DNA of 32,000 nucleotides, taken from assembly GCA_000175855.1 (NCBI GenBank), contig ACYB01000031.1, positions 60,001-92,000 on the forward strand. The letters are read 5' to 3'. Below are positions 12,944 through 21,289 of this stretch, piece by piece. The notes under the pieces were generated by a model. It was not told the origin of the DNA. It saw only the letters and a list, made by a program, of their open reading frames with translations, and did not search any database. The translations under genes and the position numbers were made by a program. Every line of letters begins with the position of its first letter. The stretch's first letter is position 1. Origin of the DNA: Raphidiopsis brookii D9 (lineage in GTDB: Bacteria; Cyanobacteriota; Cyanobacteriia; Cyanobacteriales; Nostocaceae).

Positions 12944-13002
12944 AATTATAAGGCTTTATTTATTTGGCATTGCATAATAAAGTATGAGTTCAAGCAAGAG
13001 AG

Positions 13003-13694
13003 ATGAAATGTCCAAAGTGTGGATCAGAACACATACGCAAAAATGGTATTAAGAAAGGAAAACAAAATCACATTTGCGCTGAATGTGGACGACAGTTTAT
13101 AAATCCCAGTGAACAAACCAAAGCATTCCCAGAAACTACCAAACAAACTTGCCTGAAGATGTATCTCAATGGCATGGGATTCAGGGCTATAGAAAGAGTG
13201 ATGGGAGTACATCACACCACAGTCATTGATTGGGTTAAACAAAAAGGCAAGAAGTTACCTGATGCAATCGCCCCAGAGAATATCCCCGATGTTGGCGAAT
13301 TGGATGAACTGGAAACATTTGTCGGATCAAAAAAAACAAGATTTGGGTGTGGACAGCAGTAGACCATTTCCGTAAGGGCATCCTAGCTTGGACTTTAGGT
13401 GATCATAGTGCTGAGACTTTTGAGCCATTATGGACAATAGTGGTGGCATGGCAATGCCATTTCTACGTCACTGATGGATGGACTGTATATCCAAGTTTTA
13501 TCCCTGATGGTGATCAGATTATTAGCAAGACTTACATGACGCGAGTTGAGGGAGAAAACTCTCGGTTACGTCACTATCTGGCACGATTGCACCGTAAAAC
13601 CTTCTGCTATTCCAAGTCTTTAGATATGTTGCGTTACTCTGTGCGGTTGCTGATTCATTATCTTCATGACCCTTCTGTCCTGTTCTCTTCATGA
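13003..13694 (+). CDS. IS1-family transposase InsAB' (two overlapping frames joined by -1 frameshift)
   Basis: InsA-like zinc finger and HTH (CPKCGSEHIRKNG...CAECGRQF). InsB-like DDE part (IWVWTAVDH...YVTDGWTVYPSFIP...TRVEGENSRLRHYLARLHRKTFCYSKS). The frames overlap at the A8C run. Confidence 0.85.
13329..13337 (+). other. slippery A8C -1 ribosomal frameshift site of the IS1 transposase
   Basis: AAAAAAAAC at 13329-13337. Frame 0 reads GSKKTRFGCGQQ*, and the -1 frame reads KKNKIWVWTAVDH. This matches the classic IS1 A6C arrangement. Confidence 0.7.
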
Positions 13695-13702
13695 TTCATA
13701 CT

Positions 13703-16700
13703 TTATCCTGCAACGCCTCCATTAGAATCAGTAAATACATCTCTAACCATTTCTTCCAAAGTATTTACGTTAGTGTTAGCAGCGCGAGTGAAACGATTGA
13801 GTTTTACTACGTCAGAAGATGAATATGATGGAGATGAATGTATCCTAAACATATCCTCACCGATGGTAAAGTCGTAAATATAATCGGGTTTGGTTACGAG
13901 GGAATCAGCAGAGATTATGGTTTTATTTCCCAACACCTCTATTGCCATTCCAAAACGAAATACAAAAATATCTTTTCCTGGACCTCCATACAAGTAATCT
14001 ATACCTTGAAATCCTGTCAATATATTATCACGTTCATTTCCAAATAAATAGTCTTCACTTCCAAACCCAGTTGTGTTAGTACCATTAATCTCTAATGCGT
14101 CACGATCTTCCTGCACAATAATGTGACCTTCCCCTTGTACTTCGGTGTCATAAAGATCGCTTATATCAAACATGTCCTTAAATAAGTTTTTACTATTTTG
14201 GACTGGAACATGTCTGGTACCGTTAATTAGTGATCGATATATATCCTTTACGTATGAATGATCTCCAATACTTTCTCCCTTCTGATTATTTACATACACA
14301 TCGAGATGCCCATAGCGTTTCGGATCTCCGAACCCTTCAGGATCAGTATGAATTCCAACTACTCTCTTCGCATCCGATGAATCTAAACGATCAATAGGAC
14401 CGGTTTTTTCATACTTTACCCCTGCTGCATCTAATCCAATTATTAGTCCTAATTTTTCTCCGGTCTTATTATAGTATGTTGACCCAGCTATACCAGCAAC
14501 ATGAGAACCCAGACTATGACCTATTAATTCTATTTTTTTAGGATCTATTTGTAGGGATATTAGGAAATCACTAAGTTCATCACCTATAGGAATGGTACTT
14601 ATTTTAGCCTCTTCATAAACTCCCTCTTCATAAACTTGAAAAGAATAAGAGGCATCTTCTGACCAGTCAACAAGGATAACGTTTGTGTCTGGATGCAATT
14701 TTCGATATTCAATTGGTATGTTTTCAAAAGAATTCAGTTGGTTTGAAGAGATAGGTTCGTAACCATGAATAAATAAGACGGTTTTGGAATTTTTATTTAA
14801 ATAATTACCGATATTAGAGGAATTTAGCTCCTTAAACATATCTCCTGAATAAAGGTAGAACCGAGTATCACTAACCATTCCTTTTACAGGATCTTCCGTC
14901 TGAATTGTATATTGATTTTGATCCCGTCTTGGTTTTTCCAATTGTAGACTTATATCCTCAATCCGCTCGTTTTCTTTATCAAGATGGGGAGTAATTTCAA
15001 AAAAAGCGGTTTTTTGACCTTCCTTAAACTCAATTTGCCCTTCATTATATTTTCCTGGTCCCCCTCTAGTTGTCCTGTTCCTTAAAACAGTATTAGTACT
15101 AGTTTTATAGGAAAAATCATTCGGGTCCAGCTCCCTGCCCAGCGTGCCGCCAATTTTAAAATATACTGTCAACGAATCTGAATTTGAACCAATACGAGTA
15201 AATTCATATTTCAGAGACGTACCTCCCGATTCCCTAACAATGTTTGGTGAAGATAGTTTTAGACTAACTAATGGTGGCTCATCATCAGTAATAGTTCCCA
15301 TAACAGCAGATGGGGTGCCAATAGTGTAACCACTACCCGCTGCTAGGGTTAAAATTACAGTCTCATTCTCTTCAACGGTGGTATCAGCAGTGGGGTCAAT
15401 AGTCAGGGTGGCCTTATTGCTGTTTGCTGCAAAGGTTATGGTTCCGGTTGTGCCTGTGAAGGTTGCCGCACCTTTTTGGGTATAATCATTAAATTGGGTA
15501 TTATTATCGTTGTAATATGCTGTACCTCCAATACTATAGTTGACGGTAAGGGCGTTAGCTATATTTACATTAGTTCTGGTGAAGGTGTAAACTAAGTTTG
15601 TTGTACGATCTTCTTGTACATTACTTGGTGTTGGTGATACTTCTAGGGTAATGTTAGGTTCTAAGACATCAGTAACAGTAATAAGAAATTGTTTTTCATA
15701 GGATAGTCCACTCTTGTCAGTGGTTTTGACTCGAATGTTATAACTGTTCTTGGTTTCAAAGTCAAACTGAGCCTCAGTTTTTAACTGATTGCCAGAAATG
15801 CTAAATAAATTATGGTTATCGCTATTTTGTACTGGTACTAGACTATAAGTAAAAGTGTTACCTGTATCTGGGTCTACAGTGTCGAAATCACCTACTGGTG
15901 TACCAATGTTTTGATTTTCAAGAACACTCGTCTTACTAAGATTGATCCCAGTGGGTGCCTCATTAACATCAGTAACATTAATGGTAAATTGTTTTTCATA
16001 GAATAGTCCACCTTGGTCAGTGGTTCTGACTCGAATGTTATAACTGTTCTTGGTTTCAAAGTCAAACTGAGCCTTAGTTTTGGTTTTGAGTTCATTACTG
16101 CTAATGGTAAATGAATTATTGTCATTGCTATCTGTTCCTGACACCAGACTATAAGTGAAGGTGTTATCTATATCTGGGTCTTTAGTACCGAAATAACCTA
16201 CTGATGTAACTGAGTTAACATTTTCCTCGACTACGTTTTTGGTAAGATTTAAGTCCGTAGGAGCTTTGTTAGTTGTGAATCTCCATGTTGTTGTTGAGTT
16301 GGGAAAACCAGCATAGTTGTTACCAGCTATGTCCCGAATGGCGGTGTTAGCAATTTGTACATAATAGTTTGTTCCTGATGCTAAATCATTCGTGGGATTA
16401 ATGGTTAGTTGAGTACCACTAATGGTGACATTGCTATTAGTCACTGCAATGGTTTCTACTGTGGAATTATCTGATACCTTTTTGATAAAAATGTTGCCTG
16501 TACCTTTTTGAATGGCCTCATTAAAGTTCATCACTAAATTGGCATTTACAGCCACACCTGTAGCATTATCTGTGGGGGTTAAACTGGTAGCTAGTGGAGG
16601 TGTTGTGTCTTGTATATCATCATTGGTAATAGTTCCCGTAACAGCAGAGGTTGTTCCCACAGTGTAACCTGTTCCAGACGCTAGGGTAAGGCTTACAGTT

Positions 16701-17752
16701 TCGTTGTTTTCCACTGTGGTATCAGCAGCGGGGTCCACAGTCACAGTAGCTGTAGAGGAGTTGGCGGCAAAGGTGACAGTTTTTGTAGTTCCTGCAGTCG
16801 AAATCCCAGTGTAATCTGTACCAATAGTAGCACTACCTCCAACTGTATAGTTCACCGTCAGGGCATTACTAATCACTCCAGTGCGTGTAAAGGTATAGAC
16901 TAGATTAGAACTGCCATCTTCCATAACACTGCTAGGGGAAACGGCAAGAGTGACTTGGGTATCGTCATTGGTAATAGTTCCCGTAACAGCAGATGCGGTG
17001 CCAATAGTGTAACCTGTTCCAGACGCTAGGGTAAGGCTTACAGTTTCGTTGTTTTCCACTGTGGTATCAGCAGTGGGGTCCACAGTCACAGTAGCTGTAG
17101 AGGAGTTGGCGGCAAAGGTGACAGTTTTTGTAGTTCCTGCAGTCGAAATCCCAGTGTAATCTGTACCAATAGTAGCACTACCTCCAACTGTATAGTTCAC
17201 CGTCAGGGCATTACTAATCACTCCAGTGCGTGTAAAGGTATAGACTAGATTAGAACTGCCATCTTCCATAACACTGCTAGGGGAAACGGCTAAGGTAATG
17301 ATCGGAAAATCATCATTGGTAATAGTTCCCGTAACAGCAGAGGTTGTTCCCACAGTGTAACCTGTTCCAGAAGCTAGGGTAAGGCTTACAGTTTCGTTGT
17401 TTTCCACTGTGGTATCAGCAGTAGGATCTACGGTTACCGTAGCTGTAGAAGAGTTGGCGGCAAAGGTGACAGTTTTTGTAGTTCCTGCAGTCGAAATCCC
17501 AGTGTAATCTGTACCAATAGTAGCATTACCTCCAACCGTATAGTTAACTGTCAGCGCATTACTAGTCAATCCACTGCGTGTGAAGGTGTAGATTAGGTTA
17601 CTTGTGCCATCTTCCATAACACTGCTAGGGGAAACGGCTAGAGTGACTTGGGTATCGTCATTGGTAATAGTTCCCGTAACAGCAGATGCGGTGCCAATAG
17701 TGTAACCTGTTCCAGACTCTATGGTAAGGCTTACGGTGTCGTTGTTTTCCAC
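13703..17752 (-). CDS. distal part of giant Ca-binding exoprotein: Calx-beta x3.3, SbsA/Big_5-like Ig, cadherin-like x2, Calx-beta x2, pancreatic-lipase-type hydrolase, RTX repeats; C-terminus truncated by IS1
   Basis: Domains mapped from the translation: Calx-beta units at aa 1-381 (16610-17752); Ig-like at aa 382-499; cadherin-like at aa 500-700 (15653-16255); divergent Calx-beta at aa 701-963; lipase at aa 964 to about 1230 (GHSLG Ser at 14513-14515); RTX nonapeptides at aa 1234-1265 (13958-14053). The track start is an internal GTG inside a repeat. The last 4 codons and the stop are IS1 sequence. Confidence 0.8.
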   Translation of the reverse strand: MENNDTVSLTIESGTGYTIGTASAVTGTITNDDTQVTLAVSPSSVMEDGTSNLIYTFTRSGLTSNALTVNYTVGGNATIGTDYTGISTAGTTKTVTFAANSSTATVTVDPTADTTVENNETVSLTLASGTGYTVGTTSAVTGTITNDDFPIITLAVSPSSVMEDGSSNLVYTFTRTGVISNALTVNYTVGGSATIGTDYTGISTAGTTKTVTFAANSSTATVTVDPTADTTVENNETVSLTLASGTGYTIGTASAVTGTITNDDTQVTLAVSPSSVMEDGSSNLVYTFTRTGVISNALTVNYTVGGSATIGTDYTGISTAGTTKTVTFAANSSTATVTVDPAADTTVENNETVSLTLASGTGYTVGTTSAVTGTITNDDIQDTTPPLATSLTPTDNATGVAVNANLVMNFNEAIQKGTGNIFIKKVSDNSTVETIAVTNSNVTISGTQLTINPTNDLASGTNYYVQIANTAIRDIAGNNYAGFPNSTTTWRFTTNKAPTDLNLTKNVVEENVNSVTSVGYFGTKDPDIDNTFTYSLVSGTDSNDNNSFTISSNELKTKTKAQFDFETKNSYNIRVRTTDQGGLFYEKQFTINVTDVNEAPTGINLSKTSVLENQNIGTPVGDFDTVDPDTGNTFTYSLVPVQNSDNHNLFSISGNQLKTEAQFDFETKNSYNIRVKTTDKSGLSYEKQFLITVTDVLEPNITLEVSPTPSNVQEDRTTNLVYTFTRTNVNIANALTVNYSIGGTAYYNDNNTQFNDYTQKGAATFTGTTGTITFAANSNKATLTIDPTADTTVEENETVILTLAAGSGYTIGTPSAVMGTITDDEPPLVSLKLSSPNIVRESGGTSLKYEFTRIGSNSDSLTVYFKIGGTLGRELDPNDFSYKTSTNTVLRNRTTRGGPGKYNEGQIEFKEGQKTAFFEITPHLDKENERIEDISLQLEKPRRDQNQYTIQTEDPVKGMVSDTRFYLYSGDMFKELNSSNIGNYLNKNSKTVLFIHGYEPISSNQLNSFENIPIEYRKLHPDTNVILVDWSEDASYSFQVYEEGVYEEAKISTIPIGDELSDFLISLQIDPKKIELIGHSLGSHVAGIAGSTYYNKTGEKLGLIIGLDAAGVKYEKTGPIDRLDSSDAKRVVGIHTDPEGFGDPKRYGHLDVYVNNQKGESIGDHSYVKDIYRSLINGTRHVPVQNSKNLFKDMFDISDLYDTEVQGEGHIIVQEDRDALEINGTNTTGFGSEDYLFGNERDNILTGFQGIDYLYGGPGKDIFVFRFGMAIEVLGNKTIISADSLVTKPDYIYDFTIGEDMFRIHSSPSYSSSDVVKLNRFTRAANTNVNTLEEMVRDVFTDSNGGVAG
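15653..16255 (-). repeat. two tandem ~300-bp coding repeats (cadherin-like domains)
   Basis: Long shared strings occur in both units, e.g. GACTCGAATGTTATAACTGTTCTTGGTTTCAAAGTCAAACTGAGCC. The protein units share QFDFETKNSYNIRV(R/K)TTD...YEKQF.I.VTDV. Confidence 0.8.
16610..17752 (-). repeat. tandem 345/348-bp coding repeats (Calx-beta units)
   Basis: The marker CCATAACACTGCTAGGGGAAACGGC recurs at 16921, 17266 and 17614. More than 200 nt are identical between the units ending at 16945 and 17290. Confidence 0.9.
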
Positions 17753-18277
17753 TGTGGTATCAGCAGTGAGGATCCACGGTTACAGTCTTCTGTAGAGGAG
17801 TTGGCGGGAAGGGTGACAGTTTTTGTAGTCTCCTGCAGTCGAAATTGCATGGTTACCCGTGCATAAATGAAACTACCCTCCAACTGAGTTCCTTCACCGT
17901 CAGGGGCTGTTTAATCCCTCCCCAGGCGTGTCAGGGTGTGACTAAAATAACAATGGTCATCTTTGCTACAATGGCTAGGGAAACGACAAAGAGTTGTGAT
18001 CGGCAAATGCTTGTGGAATGGCTACCCGTAGCCGTACCGTTGCTAAATGAAGCCTGTTCCTGACCTAGACCCATCGCTCTTCTTGCTGCAATCTATCGTG
18101 ATTTCAGAAAAGTTGGCTCACATCACCAGACATGTGAATGACTACACTTGCATAACTGTAAATACCGTAGTTCCAAGTTGCTATACTGCTGTTCCCTCCA
18201 TCCCAGTCAGACCCCAGGTAACCACAGACCCATCGCTCTTCAATGCTGCAAAGGCATGCACATTAGAGAAATCTGGG
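17753..18277 (-). pseudogene. frame-broken linker made of degenerate RCC1-like and Calx-beta repeat copies
   Basis: 18060-18277 aligns to the 126-bp blade unit with single-base losses. 17753-18010 aligns to the 345-bp Calx unit at roughly 70% identity with many indels. All minus frames contain stops. Confidence 0.6.
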
Positions 18278-19105
18278 TCACACCGCTGCTAATTGACTAG
18301 CTACACTACTGCTGTCCCCTCCACTTGATGAATCCCCCCAGGTAACCACAGACCCATTGCTCTTCAACGCTGCAAAGGCACTGTTGTTAGAGAAAATTTG
18401 GGTCACACCAGCAGTCAATTGACTGGCTACACTACTGCTGTCCCCTCCACCTGATGAATCCCCCCAGGTAACCACAGACCCATTGCTCTTCAACGCTGCA
18501 AAGGCACTGTTGTTAGAGAAAATTTGGGTCACACCAGCAGTCAATTGACTGGCTACACTACTGCTGTTCCCTCCAGCCCAGTCAGACCCCCAGGTAACCA
18601 CAGACCCATCGCTCTTCAATGCTGCAAAGGCATGCACATTAGAGAAAATCTGGGTCACACCGCTGCTTAATTGACTAGCTACACTACTGCTGTTCCCTCC
18701 AGCCCAGTCAAACCCCCAGGTAACCACAGACCCATTGCTCTTCAACGCTGCAAAGGCAATGTTGTTAGAGAAAATTTGGGTCACACCAGCAGTCAATTGA
18801 CTGGCTACACTTGCATAACTGTAACTACCTGTGTTGGAGTTCCAAGTTGCTATACTGCTGTCCCCTCCAACCGAGTCAAACCCCCAGGTAACCACAGACC
18901 CATCGCTCTTCAACGCTGCAAAGGCATGCACATTAGAGAAAATCTGGGTCACACCGCTGCTTAATTGACTGGCTACACTTGCATAACTGTAACTACTCCT
19001 TTCTACTATAATGTGGCTCCCTCCATACCCGTTATCACCCCAGGTGACAACGGACCCATCGCTCTTCAACGCTGCAAAGGCACCTGCATTAAGCACTTCA
19101 TACCG
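18278..19105 (-). repeat. tandem 126-bp (some 147-168-bp) coding repeats (RCC1-like blades)
   Basis: The CCAGGTAACCACAGACCCA marker occurs at 18338, 18464, 18590 and 18716, exactly 126 nt apart, and again at 18884. Units 18338-18463 and 18464-18589 differ by about 1 nt. Confidence 0.85.
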
Positions 19106-19648
19106 AGTTCTACCAAGTAAAGCCGGGGCAATGGGTATACGGGTTACGGGGTTACTTTCTTCCACCAACACCCTCTCTCCATCCACACTAATCCAATTAC
19201 TATCATTCTCCGCTTTTAACTGTGCTAGAGCAGCACGTTCTGGAGTCTTTCCCTCTACCACTGCTGAAAAAATTGCCCCTTCATCCCCCAGGCTATCTGT
19301 TGTATTCACCTGGGCATCTACATAGTGCCCATACTCTTCCAATAGTACTCGTACTAACTCGCTAGAGGGTACATTATTTATAAACTGCTCAGACAAGAAT
19401 ATCTTACCGTTACCGTATGCTCCTACTGCACTTCCTAATGTTTGTTGACTCACAATCTCCAATGTAGGCAATACCCCTTCTCCTGAAAGCCACTGACTAC
19501 GGAGTGCTTCCCCCCGATTACGGTCATAGGATTGCCCAAAGGGTACGGCAAAAACCGTCCAAAAATCCCCACGACCGGCAAAGGTTTGTAATTGCTCCAT
19601 TGCTAGGACCTGCGCCCTATTTAGCTTATTAGTGTATTCCTGACTCAT
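18278..19648 (-). CDS. proximal part of the exoprotein: N-terminal module plus six RCC1-like AFAALKSxGSVVTWG blades
   Basis: ATG 19648 is preceded by GAGGGGA; the track gives an upstream GTG at 19750. Six blade repeats start at about aa 216. The stop at 18278 is created by a 1-nt loss relative to the upstream units. Confidence 0.7.
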   Translation of the reverse strand: MSQEYTNKLNRAQVLAMEQLQTFAGRGDFWTVFAVPFGQSYDRNRGEALRSQWLSGEGVLPTLEIVSQQTLGSAVGAYGNGKIFLSEQFINNVPSSELVRVLLEEYGHYVDAQVNTTDSLGDEGAIFSAVVEGKTPERAALAQLKAENDSNWISVDGERVLVEESNPVTRIPIAPALLGRTRYEVLNAGAFAALKSDGSVVTWGDNGYGGSHIIVERSSYSYASVASQLSSGVTQIFSNVHAFAALKSDGSVVTWGFDSVGGDSSIATWNSNTGSYSYASVASQLTAGVTQIFSNNIAFAALKSNGSVVTWGFDWAGGNSSSVASQLSSGVTQIFSNVHAFAALKSDGSVVTWGSDWAGGNSSSVASQLTAGVTQIFSNNSAFAALKSNGSVVTWGDSSGGGDSSSVASQLTAGVTQIFSNNSAFAALKSNGSVVTWGDSSSGGDSSSVASQLAAV

Positions 19649-20048
19649 TGCCCAATCTCTCCCCTCTATGTTTATTGTAAATATTTGTTCTGACAAAATT
19701 TGCTCGTGAACAAGATGTAGTTTGTCTTTAAGGGATAAAACCTTATACACTTTATTTTAATGTGGAAGTGTTTACAGTATAACACAGAAATTATGTTATG
19801 GCACACACCTTATACCAGAATTTTTTAAGCATACCCACTAATCATACCCGCATAAATTAGGGTATGTGTGAGTTTTTAAAAAGGGTGATCCGCTATGGGA
19901 TCTCGCGAGACCGCACGGAGATTATGAACATGGTAAAGGGCGATCGCAGCGCACTCGCACTTGCGAGATCACCCATCAAACGCAGACGAAAAATCAAATG
20001 CTAACGCAAACGGAGGCGAAACGGTTTGCAATACCTGAGATGGGCAAC

Positions 20049-20411
20049 TTATGGCAATGGCAAATATGAAATCCGATCGCAATACTCGTCATCAAGAGAA
20101 GCAAGAGCAGCTAATACTAATTCTTCAATAGTTTCACCCAAACTCATACTGGGATTAATTTGGAAGATTCCACGAATGTGATGCCCCCGAGCAAGATGAT
20201 CGATCAGATGAACAGGCATAGAACTGCGATTATTCGTTACAAGAACAAAATCGTATTTTTCACACCAGATTAGGATATCTGGATCTAAAGTGCCTTTTGC
20301 CGGCGTGTTGGGATCGCCAATTGCCCAGACTACTAAATCAGGTTCTTTGCGTCGTAGCTGTATTTGATAAATTGGAGGGAGATTTTCATCCATCAAATAC
20401 TTGATTTGCAT
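20049..20411 (-). CDS. DUF5615-family PIN-like protein (putative toxin)
   Basis: N-terminal IKYLMDENLP motif and a later VLVTNN segment, typical of DUF5615. Its start overlaps the upstream DUF433 gene by 26 nt. Confidence 0.7.
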   Translation of the reverse strand: MQIKYLMDENLPPIYQIQLRRKEPDLVVWAIGDPNTPAKGTLDPDILIWCEKYDFVLVTNNRSSMPVHLIDHLARGHHIRGIFQINPSMSLGETIEELVLAALASLDDEYCDRISYLPLP

Positions 20412-20739
20412 AGGATTTACCTGATATTAGTCTTTCGGCTCGAAGTTGACGCAATTTTTTAAAAATTGGCGGTGGATTATGTTTTTGCTCTTCTCGCATT
20501 TTGTGTCCCCACTCTAGCCAATTAGTCAGGTACTCATCAATCTCTTGTTTATTGTGAAGATAGTATAGCACTGTGGCGTAAACTTGTTCTAGACTTAACG
20601 ACAGATAAGTTTTGGCAATTTCTTCAGGTGTTCGACTGCGGTAAATATAGTCATACAAGACTGTTTCAATCCCAATTCGCGTATCTTTTAGACGAATGTC
20701 ATTGGTAGCGAGAAAGACAAAGTAGTCTTCTAGTTGCAT
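20386..20739 (-). CDS. DUF433-domain protein (putative antitoxin)
   Basis: DTRIGIETVLYDYIYRSRTPEEIAKTYLSLSLEQVYATVLYYLHNKQEIDEYL matches the DUF433 helix-turn-helix-like core (TRI.V..VL....G..PEEI...YP.L.L..VYAAL.YY). Confidence 0.7.
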   Translation of the reverse strand: MQLEDYFVFLATNDIRLKDTRIGIETVLYDYIYRSRTPEEIAKTYLSLSLEQVYATVLYYLHNKQEIDEYLTNWLEWGHKMREEQKHNPPPIFKKLRQLRAERLISGKSYANQVFDG

Positions 20740-20860: not shown

Positions 20861-21289
20861 TCAACTAGAAGCGCCTTTCGGCTTGGTTCCATTGCTCCGT
20901 AACTCAGGTTCCTTGACCACTAGTCCCCAGTTAGAGATACTGTAAAAAGAGTGGCGACTCTTAATATCAGTACGAGACTTAAGAGTTTTATTCAGTTGAT
21001 TCCACTGACTCCATACGTGCTTTCCATCCTTCACGGAGAGATAGGCGGTTATGGAGTCATGCATTTTTTCTTTTTATTATATGGGTATTCCCGAAGATTT
21101 GCCAAGATATACCCAGATATTTTCATTCACATACCAACCCTGCCAGAGGGATCGCACTTCATCAATAATTTTACGGTTATATTCTGTCCCAAAAGCTGTA
21201 TCGATAGCTTCCCAGAAATCACTTGACAAAGAGAAAGAGGCAAGTTGATTCTGAACTATATCTAGGGCTTTCTTAATCAAGGAGGTCAT
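20861..21289 (-). pseudogene. orphan fragment homologous to the exoprotein N-terminal module, interrupted by in-frame TAATAA
   Basis: ORF 21077..21289 (ALDIVQNQLASFSLSSDFWEAIDTAFGTEYNRKIIDEVRSLWQG) parallels aa 48-90 of ORF 18278..19750 (VLAMEQLQTFAGRGDFWTVFAVPFGQSYDRNRGEALRSQWLSG). ORF 20861..21064 is in the same frame, 12 nt after a double stop. No repeats or enzymatic domain follow. Confidence 0.4.

What the first reader, a model, noticed from the sequence alone, without database searches (positions are those of the whole stretch)
13703..19750. Giant mosaic exoprotein gene (RCC1-like blades + Calx-beta + Ig-like + cadherin + lipase + RTX) present as two ORFs plus a decayed linker
Seen on the minus strand. 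ORF 18278..19750 (likely start ATG 19648) encodes an N-terminal module followed by six near-identical AFAALKS(D/N)GSVVTWG blades. It stops at 18278 only because the next unit has lost single bases (TTAAGCAGC -> TTAGCAGC; CAGATTTTCTC -> CAGATTTCTC). ORF 13703..17752 has no N-terminus of its own. Its 'start' is the GTG that encodes Val within the repeat motif TVENN(E/D)TVSLT, so it opens in the middle of a Calx-beta unit, with no signal peptide or RBS context. The 525 nt in between still contain recognisable copies of both repeat types. Joined together, the locus reads: N-module, at least 7 RCC1-like blades, 4-5 Calx-beta, SbsA/Big_5-like Ig, 2 cadherin-like, 2 divergent Calx-beta, pancreatic-type lipase, 3 RTX nonapeptides (GNERDNILT/GFQGIDYLY/GGPGKDIFV). 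By inference this was a single calcium-dependent surface or secreted protein of about 2,000 residues that couples adhesion-type modules to a lipolytic domain. I do not know a characterised protein with this domain order.
Basis: partly seen in the sequence, partly recalled or inferred. Interest (0 to 1): 0.75.

Follow-up and report, generated by a model that had tools for sequence, protein, structure and literature searches.

The report
Broken giant secreted lipase-adhesin gene
This is the wreck of one very large cyanobacterial gene for a calcium-dependent secreted protein that joined sticky repeat modules to an animal-type lipase; in this strain a mobile element cuts off its tail and a garbled 520-base stretch splits it, so it is ordinary gene decay with an unusual enzyme module.

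Summary
The window is Raphidiopsis brookii D9. ORF 18278-19648(-) encodes a conserved cyanobacterial N-module plus six RCC1-like blades. ORF 13703-17752(-) encodes Calx-beta x3, Big_5, cadherin x2, two weak Calx-like units, a PF00151 lipase (102 bits; GHSLG Ser, GLD Asp) and three RTX nonapeptides. The 520 nt between them holds two more blades, the blade/Calx junction and a Calx unit, with about 11 frameshifts and 3 stops.

Relatives carry RCC1->Calx, Calx->Big_5->cadherin->Calx, and Calx'->lipase->RTX->bluetail inside single ORFs. One ancestral gene of about 2,040 aa is therefore well supported, but no full-length intact orthologue was seen.

- An IS1 element (12966-17717... precisely 12966-13717) supplies the stop codon and removes the roughly 66-aa bluetail tail. 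It sits at an inversion breakpoint.
- The GTG at 19750 lies in a D9-only 316-bp insert. ATG 19648 is the real start.
- Four C. raciborskii assemblies keep only the leader plus six codons at this locus.
- All lesions cluster in 520 nt, while 5.4 kb has none. D9 was assembled from 454 GS20 reads, so the "decay" may partly be an assembly artefact.

Verdict: a disrupted new member of the modular RTX/bluetail exoprotein kind. Interest is modest.

The parts
19649..19704 (-). Conserved 5' leader with a GAGGGGAGAG ribosome-binding stretch just upstream of ATG 19648
   Evidence: Region 19630-19704 is 98.7% identical to L005, L036, L037 and L040 of C. raciborskii. Sequence read.
19705..20020. D9-specific 316-bp insert between the DUF5615 gene and the leader. 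It contains the GTG at 19750 that the ORF listing uses as the ORF start.
   Evidence: It is absent from all fetched Cylindrospermopsis loci, and the flanks are contiguous in them. It has small palindromes only and no terminal inverted repeats.
19153..19648 (-). N-terminal module of about 165 aa, with an EEYGHYVD...GDEGAIF motif. It is conserved at the N-terminus of many cyanobacterial giant exoproteins.
   Evidence: 25 loci across cyanobacteria are 30-45% identical. There is no Pfam or NCBIfam family, and SprT-like scores only E=0.075. The AF2 model has pLDDT 84. No significant PDB fold match was found, but the top-ranked folds are zincin metalloproteases at E about 0.2.
18278..19152 (-). Six intact RCC1-like (BLIP-II-like) beta-propeller blades, ending at the premature TGA (18278-18280)
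   Evidence: RCC1_2 scores 73.6 bits. Blade anchors are at 19078, 18922, 18754, 18628, 18502 and 18376. There is BLIP-II sequence similarity.
17753..18289 (-). Damaged linker: the end of blade 6, blade 7, the nearly erased blade 8, the blade/Calx junction (AFADHNSLSFP, compare VSFADPFNDDRLVP) and Calx-beta unit C0. It carries about 11 frameshifts and 3 in-frame stops.
   Evidence: Three-frame translations. Unit alignments: blade 8 is 51-61% identical to the other blades. C0 is 64-67% identical to C1-C3, which are 87-95% identical to each other. Frameshift-aware alignment to P0113, P0003 and P0001.
16616..17752 (-). Tail of C0 plus three complete, near-identical Calx-beta units (345-348 nt each)
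   Evidence: Calx-beta scores 72.1 bits over 3 stretches. Unit boundaries.
16271..16609 (-). Big_5 bacterial Ig-like domain
   Evidence: PF13205 scores 72.8-80.1 bits.
15671..16252 (-). Two cadherin-like domains
   Evidence: PF00028 scores 63.1 bits over 2 stretches. The first alone scores 38.9 bits.
14903..15670 (-). Two divergent Calx-beta-like units, both below the Pfam threshold
   Evidence: They score 21.1 and 14.0 bits against a cut-off of 27. The second unit is shared with the lipase-bearing relatives P0122-P0124.
14108..14887 (-). Pancreatic-lipase-family alpha/beta-hydrolase domain. Ser1080 lies in GHSLG (14513-14515), Asp1108 in GLDAAG (14429-14431) and the candidate His1165 in GDHSY (14258-14260). 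There is almost no lid and no PLAT domain.
   Evidence: PF00151 scores 102.5 bits. PDB sequence matches are to pancreatic lipase, LPL, PLRP and hornet PLA1, with Ser and Asp aligned. In the Foldseek search of the AF2 model the top 21 hits are all from this family. Residue positions.
13961..14041 (-). Three RTX nonapeptides: GNERDNILT, GFQGIDYLY, GGPGKDIFV
   Evidence: HemolysinCabind scores 19.2 bits in the whole ORF and 23.1 bits for the tail alone, against a cut-off of 23. There is similarity to the serralysin C-terminal domain. Coordinates.
13718..13960 (-). Post-RTX tail up to ...VFTDSNG. It breaks off just before where relatives have the 55-aa bluetail domain.
   Evidence: It aligns to P0121 residues 231-349 of 415 and to P0209 residues 704-796 of 863. 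Bluetail NF041519 lies at P0121 356-414 and P0123 678-738.
12966..13717 (+). IS1-family insertion sequence (752 bp) with 22-nt imperfect terminal inverted repeats and the two-ORF InsA/InsB' layout. Its right end supplies the last five codons and the TAA of 'ORF1'.
   Evidence: Inverted repeats at 12966-12987 and 13696-13717. NF033558 IS1 transposase scores 128 and 111 bits against a cut-off of 100. DDE_Tnp_IS1 scores 70.8 bits. Homology to other strains stops exactly at 12965. No target-site duplication is seen.

Best explanation
The locus is the disrupted remnant of ONE gene for a modular, calcium-dependent exoprotein. It belongs to the RTX/'bluetail' kind that is common in bloom-forming cyanobacteria, and was about 1,977 codons plus roughly 66 that are now missing.

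Reconstructed order:
- a conserved N-module;
- a beta-propeller of about 8 RCC1-like blades;
- 4 Calx-beta units;
- Big_5;
- 2 cadherin domains;
- 2 Calx-like units;
- a pancreatic-lipase-family catalytic domain;
- a short RTX beta-roll;
- a bluetail tail.

Inferred mode of action, from family knowledge:
- The protein is exported unfolded by a type I secretion system, using its C-terminal end.
- It folds outside the cell when Ca2+ binds the RTX, Calx-beta and cadherin modules.
- The stalk and propeller hold or target the protein.
- The lidless lipase, with its short beta9 loop, hydrolyses exposed acyl esters. By analogy with the short-lid members of the family it is more likely a phospholipase A1-type or general esterase activity than an interfacially activated triglyceride lipase.

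State in R. brookii D9 as assembled: the gene cannot make this product.
- An IS1 element at an inversion breakpoint replaces the bluetail tail.
- A 520-nt stretch between the last blades and the first Calx unit carries about 11 frameshifts and 3 stops.

Shown here: domain identities, lesions, the IS boundary, the synteny break and the architectures of relatives. Inferred: secretion route, Ca2+ dependence and substrate.
For: Domains.

Lipase:
- Ser and Asp align to human pancreatic lipase Ser152 and Asp176.
- The fold search returns only pancreatic-lipase-family structures in the top 21 hits. The best target coverage is on the single-domain hornet PLA1 (TMt 0.53).

Single-gene architecture in relatives: RCC1 -> Calx; Calx -> Big_5 -> cadherin -> Calx; Calx' -> lipase -> RTX -> bluetail.

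Reading frame and start:
- ORF2 and ORF1 are in one frame.
- ATG 19648 is preceded by a leader conserved in other strains.

IS1:
- Its boundaries and family are established.
- The tail breaks off immediately before the bluetail position.
- Gene order from 13.7 kb to 32 kb is inverted relative to ten other Cylindrospermopsis contigs, with the IS at the breakpoint.

Lesion count.

Cargo-swapped relatives:
- P0209 carries a Lipase_3-like hydrolase at the same position on a 72%-identical scaffold.
- Other relatives carry GDSL, GH18 or glycanase domains with cadherin/Calx plus RTX.
Against: - No intact orthologue with the whole domain order was found. The search for homologous proteins only listed proteins up to about 1.75 times the query length, so giant proteins were invisible.
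- In A. gracile the lipase cassette stands alone with its own start. The D9 order could therefore be a late fusion.
- The lesions are wildly non-uniform: 14 in 520 nt and none in 5.4 kb. Simple neutral decay of a dead gene does not predict that.
- The catalytic His could not be placed with confidence. The model has pLDDT below 50 there, and MAFFT does not align it with the metazoan His.
- No T1SS genes lie in the window.
- dN/dS is 0.75 over Big_5 plus cadherin against Cuspidothrix. That is compatible with relaxed constraint, but also with a fast-evolving surface protein.
Confidence: 0.72

Rival explanations
1. The 'decayed linker' is wholly or partly an assembly or sequencing artefact. In the living strain the blades run straight into the Calx units, and the gene is one open frame from 19648 down to the IS1. 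The GenBank consensus over this repeat boundary would come from 454 homopolymer miscalls and a poor gap-closing read.
For: [quoted passage not shown]
- The first three lesions are 1-nt losses in short homopolymers (AA, TTTT, GGGGG), and together they restore the frame.
- All 14 lesions fall in 520 nt at the boundary between two repeat families, while 5.4 kb of flanking gene has none.
- The net frame is preserved.
- Divergence of blade 8 and C0 from their sister units is 35-45%. That is far older than the roughly 1% divergence of D9 from C. raciborskii in flanking DNA. Positions that are invariant in all relatives (AFAALK, VTWG) are lost.
Against: - There are no ambiguous bases.
- Several lesions are not in homopolymers.
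- Conserved genes elsewhere in the window show no frameshifts relative to other strains.
- The reads are not available, and a 25-mer from the linker found nothing in JGI metagenomes either way.
Confidence: 0.35
2. The locus is a late chimera. The Calx...lipase part arrived by lateral transfer or recombination from a Cuspidothrix- or Aphanizomenon-like donor. It was joined to a resident N-module/RCC1 gene through an already degenerate stretch, so a functional 2,000-aa protein never existed in this lineage.
For: - dS is only 0.12 between D9 and Cuspidothrix issatschenkoi over Big_5 plus cadherin (84% nt identity overall). That is low for two different genera (the expectation of much higher genome-wide dS is my own knowledge).
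- No other Cylindrospermopsis or Raphidiopsis protein in the collections matches the lipase.
- The lipase cassette is an independent gene in A. gracile.
- The locus is a rearrangement hot spot, with IS1, an IS5-type end, an inversion and a D9-only insert.
Against: - P0166 shows that canonical Calx units precede Big_5 in the donor-like gene too.
- RCC1 -> Calx joins are the normal architecture in relatives. A plain full-length gene is therefore the simpler origin.
- The linker still contains the specific blade/Calx junction motif.
Confidence: 0.15
3. ORF2 and ORF1 are two independent functional genes. One would be an RCC1 propeller protein and the other a Calx/cadherin/lipase protein, and the stretch between them would be an ordinary spacer.
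For: Both ORFs are long and free of lesions. The lipase cassette can exist as its own gene elsewhere.
Against: - ORF1 begins inside a Calx-beta unit at a Val codon, with no RBS.
- The 'spacer' is made of blade and Calx remnants.
- ORF1 ends in IS sequence and lacks the bluetail tail.
- ORF2 lacks any C-terminal RTX region or tail.
- Promoter-like matches are at the background level.
Confidence: 0.05

Closest known systems
Pancreatic lipase gene family (Pfam PF00151: pancreatic lipase, lipoprotein lipase, PLRP2, vespid/PS-PLA1)
   Same: The catalytic alpha/beta-hydrolase core matches, with the GHSLG nucleophile elbow and the GLD(P/A)A Asp. HMM, PDB sequence and fold matches are all confined to this family. 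The short beta9 loop and minimal lid resemble the PLA1 members (alignment; the lid/beta9 rule is from my knowledge of the family).
   Different: It is bacterial. It has no C-terminal PLAT/colipase-binding domain, no Cys-bounded lid and no signal peptide. It is embedded at the C-terminal end of a 2,000-aa repeat protein and followed by RTX repeats. It is only about 30-35% identical to animal members. Its nearest cyanobacterial relatives, P0121-P0124, have Gly in place of the nucleophile Ser.
Type I-secreted RTX lipases and esterases (family I.3 lipases such as Pseudomonas/Serratia LipA/TliA; PueA/PueB)
   Same: A lipolytic alpha/beta-hydrolase sits N-terminal to an RTX beta-roll and a C-terminal export region. 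There are weak NCBIfam matches of the tail to PueAB and the serralysin C-terminal domain.
   Different: The catalytic domain belongs to a different lipase family (PF00151). The protein carries a long adhesin-type stalk and a propeller. The tail is of the cyanobacterial bluetail type in relatives and is missing in D9.
Giant RTX adhesins (LapA, MpIBP, SiiE/FrhA type)
   Same: These are large Ca2+-binding tandem Ig-like, Calx or cadherin stalks with a ligand-binding region and a C-terminal RTX plus T1SS signal (general knowledge; domain).
   Different: It has an enzymatic cargo. Its N-module is unrelated to the known retention modules: there is no family match and the fold hints are zincin-like. 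It is much shorter.
Cyanobacterial modular RTX/bluetail exoproteins with swappable hydrolase cargo (for example P0209 Lipase_3-like; P0216/P0246 GDSL; P0201 GH18; P0205/P0215 ExsH glycanase)
   Same: They share the same building blocks and tail. P0209 shares 72% identity over the cadherin/Calx scaffold and has a hydrolase at the same position, followed by RTX and bluetail.
   Different: The cargo here is a PF00151 lipase, seen in only a handful of cyanobacterial proteins. None of these proteins is characterised, as far as the paper searches show.

Membership tests
Pancreatic lipase family (PF00151) | Profile match above the curated threshold | tested here: met
   102.5 bits against a cut-off of 27, residues 956-1156 of ORF1.
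Pancreatic lipase family (PF00151) | Nucleophile Ser in G-H-S-L-G and Asp in G-L-D-P/A-A | tested here: met
   GHSLGSH and IIGLDAAG align to 1LPA GHSLGAH (Ser152) and ITGLDPA (Asp176). Coordinates.
Pancreatic lipase family (PF00151) | Catalytic His after the lid region | tested here: inconclusive
   The candidate His1165 (GDHSY) aligns with AHDY of the cyanobacterial relatives but not with the metazoan C-x-H column. The HMM and PDB alignments stop before it. The model has pLDDT below 50 there.
Pancreatic lipase family (PF00151) | Disulfide-bounded lid of about 23 residues and a C-terminal PLAT domain (true pancreatic/LPL lipases) | tested here: not met
   Only about 8 residues lie between VYVNN and the His. 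There are no Cys residues and no PLAT match; RTX repeats follow instead. The domain therefore resembles single-domain PLA1-like members, not classical pancreatic lipase.
Pancreatic lipase family (PF00151) | Fold | tested here: met
   In the Foldseek PDB search, ranks 1-21 are all pancreatic lipase, LPL, PLRP or hornet PLA1 (E 3e-10 to 1e-7). Generic esterases appear only from 5e-5. The model confidence is modest (pLDDT 60; core 70-92).
RTX / type I secretion substrates | Tandem GGxGxDxUx nonapeptides | tested here: met
   There are three repeats. HemolysinCabind scores 19.2 bits in the whole ORF and 23.1 bits for the tail alone against a cut-off of 23, which is a borderline pass. There is similarity to the serralysin C-terminal domain.
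RTX / type I secretion substrates | Intact extreme C-terminus carrying the export signal (bluetail domain NF041519 in cyanobacterial relatives) | tested here: not met
   The D9 sequence ends in IS1 DNA at the position of P0121 residue 349, where bluetail spans 356-414. There is no bluetail match in D9.
RTX / type I secretion substrates | Dedicated ABC transporter, membrane-fusion protein and outer-membrane genes nearby | tested here: not met
   None is present among the ORFs of the 32-kb window, as annotated through the syntenic loci. Linkage is not obligatory for T1SS substrates.
RCC1-like beta-propeller (PF13540 RCC1_2) | Seven or more blades matching the repeat profile | tested here: met
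   73.6 bits. There are six intact blades plus two damaged ones. BLIP-II gives the best PDB sequence similarity. The blade number may be underestimated in a 454 assembly.
Calx-beta (PF03160) | Profile match per unit | tested here: met
   72.1 bits over 3 stretches for the canonical units. The two 'divergent' units reach only 21.1 and 14.0 bits, so their status is inconclusive.
IS1 family insertion sequence | IS1 transposase in two frames, terminal inverted repeats and a target-site duplication | tested here: inconclusive
   The transposase halves score 128 and 111 bits against a cut-off of 100, and there are 22-nt inverted repeats. No target-site duplication flanks it. That fits an IS-mediated inversion, whose second junction lies outside the window.
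Zincin-like metalloprotease (N-module) | HExxH motif and a significant fold or profile match | tested here: not met
   The motif is EEYGH, and only one His is invariant in the family. SprT-like scores E=0.075. The best Foldseek hits (SPRTN, selecase, AsaP1) have E >= 0.2. The module is not filed as a protease; this is only a fold hint.

The most novel reading that the evidence does not exclude
Pancreatic-lipase-family (PF00151) domains form a small, uncharacterised cyanobacterial clade. The family is otherwise overwhelmingly animal. On this reading:
- The clade's members are lidless and PLA1-like.
- They serve as one of several interchangeable C-terminal 'cargo' enzymes on Ca2+-dependent RTX/bluetail giant exoproteins of bloom-forming Nostocales.
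- These cassettes move between genera by recent lateral transfer (dS 0.12 between Raphidiopsis D9 and Cuspidothrix).

D9 would then preserve the only copy in its clade that still has the catalytic Ser on a full adhesin scaffold.
Probability: 0.3. Interest if true: 0.55.

Novelty: new member of a known kind. Interest (0 to 1): 0.32.

Why it matters
For D9 itself this is one more example of IS-driven gene loss in a genome already known to be reduced. It is also a warning that repeat-rich genes in 454-era assemblies can look 'decayed'.

The wider point is modest but real. Bloom-forming cyanobacteria carry a toolbox of giant Ca2+-dependent exoproteins whose C-terminal enzyme can be swapped. The options seen here are a PF00151 lipase, a class-3-like lipase, GDSL, a glycanase and GH18.

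A bacterial, lidless member of the animal pancreatic-lipase family fused to RTX repeats has not, as far as I could find, been characterised. If it is active it would bear on two questions: how these cyanobacteria attack or harvest foreign membranes and lipids, and the evolutionary origin of the lipase family.

Tried and rejected
- Looking for the other inversion junction and the missing 3' end in D9. Exact-protein look-ups for Uma2, the ligase, the AMP-binding protein and the DUF5615 protein found nothing. The MFS look-up did not return the D9 contig. This stays unresolved.
- Searching genome contigs with the N-module. It found 25 distant cyanobacterial loci but no Cylindrospermopsis or Raphidiopsis locus, not even D9.
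- Searching for a full-length orthologue with the search for homologous proteins. The listings never exceeded about 1.75 times the query length, so giant proteins could not appear.
- The exhaustive HMMER search with the lipase and RTX part. The large top hits (4,769 aa and others) turned out to be insect multi-lipase proteins, not bacterial giants.
- A metagenome scan for a 25-mer of the linker, to test whether the decayed sequence exists independently. It gave 0 hits, which is uninformative.
- A global DNA alignment of the linker to the intact junction of L045. It is out of register because D9 has an extra blade, so I used it only for baseline identity.
- A promoter and terminator scan. Counts were at shuffle background, so I gave it no weight.
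- The N-module as a metalloprotease. I rejected membership.
- Programmed frameshifting or phase variation as the cause of the split. I rejected this because there are 11 shifts plus stops, not one slippery site.

Full report
**Source and observation**

Exact-sequence look-ups place the window in Raphidiopsis brookii D9. The matching records are EFA73128, EFA73130 (CRD_01534, a 985-aa call inside ORF1) and EFA73132.
- ORF2 has six AFAALKS(D/N)GSVVTWG blades.
A third loss (GGGGG -> GGGG) sits in blade 7.
- ORF1 opens at the GTG that encodes Val of TVENNDTVSLT inside a Calx-beta unit.

**Domains**

- RCC1_2: 73.6 bits.
- Calx-beta: 72.1 bits.
- Big_5: 72.8 bits.
- Cadherin: 63.1 bits, two stretches.
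- Lipase PF00151: 102.5 bits.
- HemolysinCabind: borderline, 19.2 bits in the full ORF and 23.1 bits against a cut-off of 23 for the tail alone.
- The two 'divergent Calx-beta' units reach only 21.1 and 14.0 bits on their own.

**The lipase**

The lipase domain matches only pancreatic lipase, lipoprotein lipase, PLRP1/2 and hornet phospholipase A1 among solved structures. GHSLGSH aligns to Ser152 and GLDAAG to Asp176 of human pancreatic lipase.

An AlphaFold model has modest confidence (pLDDT 60; core 70-92). In the Foldseek search its first 21 matches are all from that family. Target coverage is best on the single-domain hornet PLA1.

Three features set the domain apart from classical pancreatic lipases:
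- Only about 8 residues separate VYVNN from the candidate His (GDHSY), so there is essentially no lid.
- The beta9 loop is short.
- There is no PLAT domain.

By the known lid/beta9 rule of this family (my knowledge), that points to an open, PLA1-like or esterase-like site. The His itself could not be confirmed.

A 752-bp IS1-family element occupies 12966-13717.
- It has 22-nt imperfect inverted repeats at 12966-12987 and 13696-13717.
- The two halves of the IS1 transposase score 128 and 111 bits against a cut-off of 100.
- Homology of the left flank to ten other Cylindrospermopsis contigs stops exactly at 12965.
- The last five codons and the TAA of 'ORF1' are IS sequence.

The native tail ends at ...VFTDSNG. 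That aligns to residue 349 of 415 in P0121 and to about residue 796 of 863 in P0209. In those relatives the next 55-60 residues are the NCBIfam 'bluetail' domain, NF041519. D9 has lost it.

No target duplication flanks the IS.

Gene order shows an inversion:
- Gene order from the giant gene to EamA is the reverse of that in the other strains, where the order is 202-aa gene, EamA, Uma2, ligase, AMP-binding, GDPD, chromate transporter, MFS, 70-aa ORF, DUF433, DUF5615.
- The IS therefore marks one breakpoint of an inversion.
- The other breakpoint lies beyond the window and could not be fetched.

**The 5' end**

Homology to other strains runs from 22000 down to 20021, skips a D9-only 316-bp insert (19705-20020), and resumes at 19704-19630.
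- The GTG at 19750 is inside the insert, so ATG 19648 is the start. It is preceded by GAGGGGAGAG.
- In four C. raciborskii assemblies the shared sequence ends after codon 6 (MSQEYT). It then runs into a 29-nt-identical end of a mobile element.
- The same element interrupts the gene of the closest relative, P0001, in a JGI contig, where it encodes an HTH_Tnp_4 transposase.

At the syntenic site the other strains therefore keep only the leader and six codons. D9 holds the only surviving body of the gene in this clade.

**Was it one gene?**

Relatives answer this piecewise.
- P0001 (61% identical, about 75% in the N-module by eye) has the N-module, ten blades, 'GVVSFADPFNDDRLVP' and then Calx-beta in one ORF.
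- P0003 and P0113 (C. raciborskii) and P0018 (Microcystis) show the same RCC1 -> Calx join.
- P0166 from Cuspidothrix issatschenkoi (81% identical) has Calx -> Big_5 -> cadherin x2 -> Calx in the D9 order.
- P0121-P0124 have Calx' -> PF00151 -> RTX -> bluetail.
- ORF2 and ORF1 are in the same frame in the raw DNA.
- The linker still holds the junction motif in degraded form.

One ancestral gene of 1,977 codons plus about 66 missing is the best reading.

I did not find an intact orthologue with the whole order. The protein search listed nothing longer than about 1.75 times the query, and the one genome scan missed the genus. In Aphanizomenon gracile the Big_5 -> Calx' -> lipase -> RTX cassette has its own ATG and a Pro/Thr-rich N-terminal repeat, and it too is broken before its tail.

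**The linker**

A frameshift-aware alignment to three templates gives about 11 frameshifts and 3 in-frame stops between 18289 and 17768. The 1.37 kb of ORF2 and the 4.0 kb of ORF1 have none.
- Blade 8 is 51-61% identical to its sisters. Calx unit C0 is 64-67% identical to C1-C3, which are 87-95% identical to each other.
- Residues that are invariant in all relatives are lost.
- Such old-looking damage next to pristine sequence is not what uniform decay of a dead gene gives. Flanking DNA differs from C. raciborskii by only about 1%.

The D9 genome was assembled from 454 GS20 reads at 27x with newbler. Gaps at repeats were closed by primer walking with few Sanger reads (PMC2821919). The first three lesions are homopolymer losses that together restore the frame.

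I therefore give about 0.35 to the linker being at least partly an artefact. Against that: there are no ambiguous bases, several lesions lie outside homopolymers, and other genes in the window are clean. A metagenome scan for a linker 25-mer found nothing.

**Distribution and evolution**

An exhaustive HMMER search of 1.84 billion representatives with the lipase and RTX part gave 4,222 hits at E <= 1e-3. Only 12 were at E <= 1e-30.
- The big top hits are insect and crustacean multi-lipase proteins.
- The bacterial ones are a handful of cyanobacterial proteins: Aphanizomenon gracile; Dolichospermum DET73, with the RTX region N-terminal to the lipase; an Oscillatoriales MAG; and metagenomic sequences.
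- P0121-P0124 have GHGLG, with Gly in place of the nucleophile Ser, and a long insert at the lid position. D9, P0287 and P0289 keep GHSLG.
- No other Cylindrospermopsis or Raphidiopsis protein matches the lipase.

Over Big_5 plus cadherin, D9 against Cuspidothrix gives dS 0.12, dN 0.09 and dN/dS 0.75. That dS is low for two genera, which suggests recent lateral exchange. The ratio suggests relaxed or diversifying evolution.

P0209 shares 72% identity over the cadherin/Calx scaffold. It carries a Lipase_3-like hydrolase (GHSLGG) at the cargo position, followed by RTX and bluetail. Other hits combine cadherin or Calx plus RTX with GDSL, GH18 or glycanase domains. The D9 gene is thus one variant of a common modular kind.

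**N-module**

This 165-aa module occurs at the N-terminus of many cyanobacterial giant proteins, with 25 loci at 30-45% identity. It matches no curated family. Its model is confident (pLDDT 84) but has no significant PDB neighbour. The top-ranked folds are zincin metalloproteases at E about 0.2, and Pfam SprT-like scores E = 0.075. The motif is EEYGH, not HExxH. Its function remains open.

**Verdict**

As assembled, however, the D9 copy is non-functional: its tail is removed by an IS1 at an inversion breakpoint, and the blade/Calx junction is scrambled. Part of that scrambling may be technical.

It is a new, broken member of the known kind 'modular Ca2+-dependent RTX/bluetail exoprotein with enzyme cargo'. 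The PF00151 cargo is the only unusual element. Paper searches found no description of bacterial PF00151/RTX proteins.

Noticed in passing
window 12966-13717: This is an IS1-family element with 22-nt imperfect inverted repeats and an A8 run at the InsA/InsB' overlap. It has no target-site duplication. It marks one breakpoint of an inversion of at least 18 kb relative to ten other Cylindrospermopsis contigs. The D9 genome paper reports only 9 transposase genes, of which one is full length.
   Followed up: partly
window 19705-20020: This 316-bp insert is present only in D9. It lies between the DUF5615 gene and the leader of the giant gene. It contains a HIP1 site (GCGATCGC) and small palindromes but no terminal inverted repeats, and its origin is unknown. 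It creates the spurious upstream GTG start at 19750.
   Followed up: partly
L036:10794-10826, L037, L005, L040; L045:1986-2467: In four C. raciborskii assemblies the homologue of the giant gene stops after codon 6. It abuts a 29-nt-identical end of a mobile element. The same element, here encoding an HTH_Tnp_4 transposase, interrupts the first Calx unit of the closest relative's gene in a JGI metagenome contig.
   Followed up: partly
window 21077-21289 (-): This 70-aa ORF is conserved in other strains. Its sequence (…SLSSDFWEAIDTAFGTEYNRKIIDEVRSLWQ…) resembles the first 50 residues of N-module proteins such as P0066. It is probably the 5' stump of a second giant exoprotein gene.
   Followed up: no
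window 20049-20739 (-): This is an overlapping DUF433 (117 aa) and DUF5615 (120 aa) gene pair, which looks like a toxin-antitoxin-type cassette. It lies immediately upstream of the giant gene. Similar DUF433 cassettes flank the lipase gene in Aphanizomenon gracile (L046).
   Followed up: no
P0121-P0124 (for example L046:10001-12268): The Aphanizomenon-type PF00151/RTX proteins have GHGLG instead of GHSLG, so the nucleophile Ser is replaced by Gly. They also have a 60-150-residue insert where the lid would be, so they may be catalytically dead binding proteins.
   Followed up: partly
L046:9100-12900: The A. gracile lipase gene starts with a long tandem Pro/Thr-rich repeat (KPATPPASSTPVATA / NIPIGIT). 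It is itself split by about 130 nt between the RTX repeats and the bluetail tail.
   Followed up: no
L041:300-8841: In C. raciborskii GCA_002027345.1 the region upstream of the MFS gene differs. It carries an ISL3 transposase, a C39-peptidase ABC exporter with a cNMP-binding domain, an AprE/HlyD-type membrane-fusion protein and a rotamase. That is a T1SS-like export cassette where D9 has the giant gene.
   Followed up: no
window 15671-16609 vs L047: Synonymous divergence between D9 and Cuspidothrix issatschenkoi over Big_5 plus cadherin is only 0.12, with dN/dS 0.75. This suggests recent lateral exchange of this cassette between genera.
   Followed up: partly
tool behaviour: the search for homologous proteins never listed a protein longer than about 1.75 times the query length (797, 757 and 921 aa for queries of 456, 496 and 526 aa). 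Giant orthologues cannot be found with short queries.
   Followed up: no
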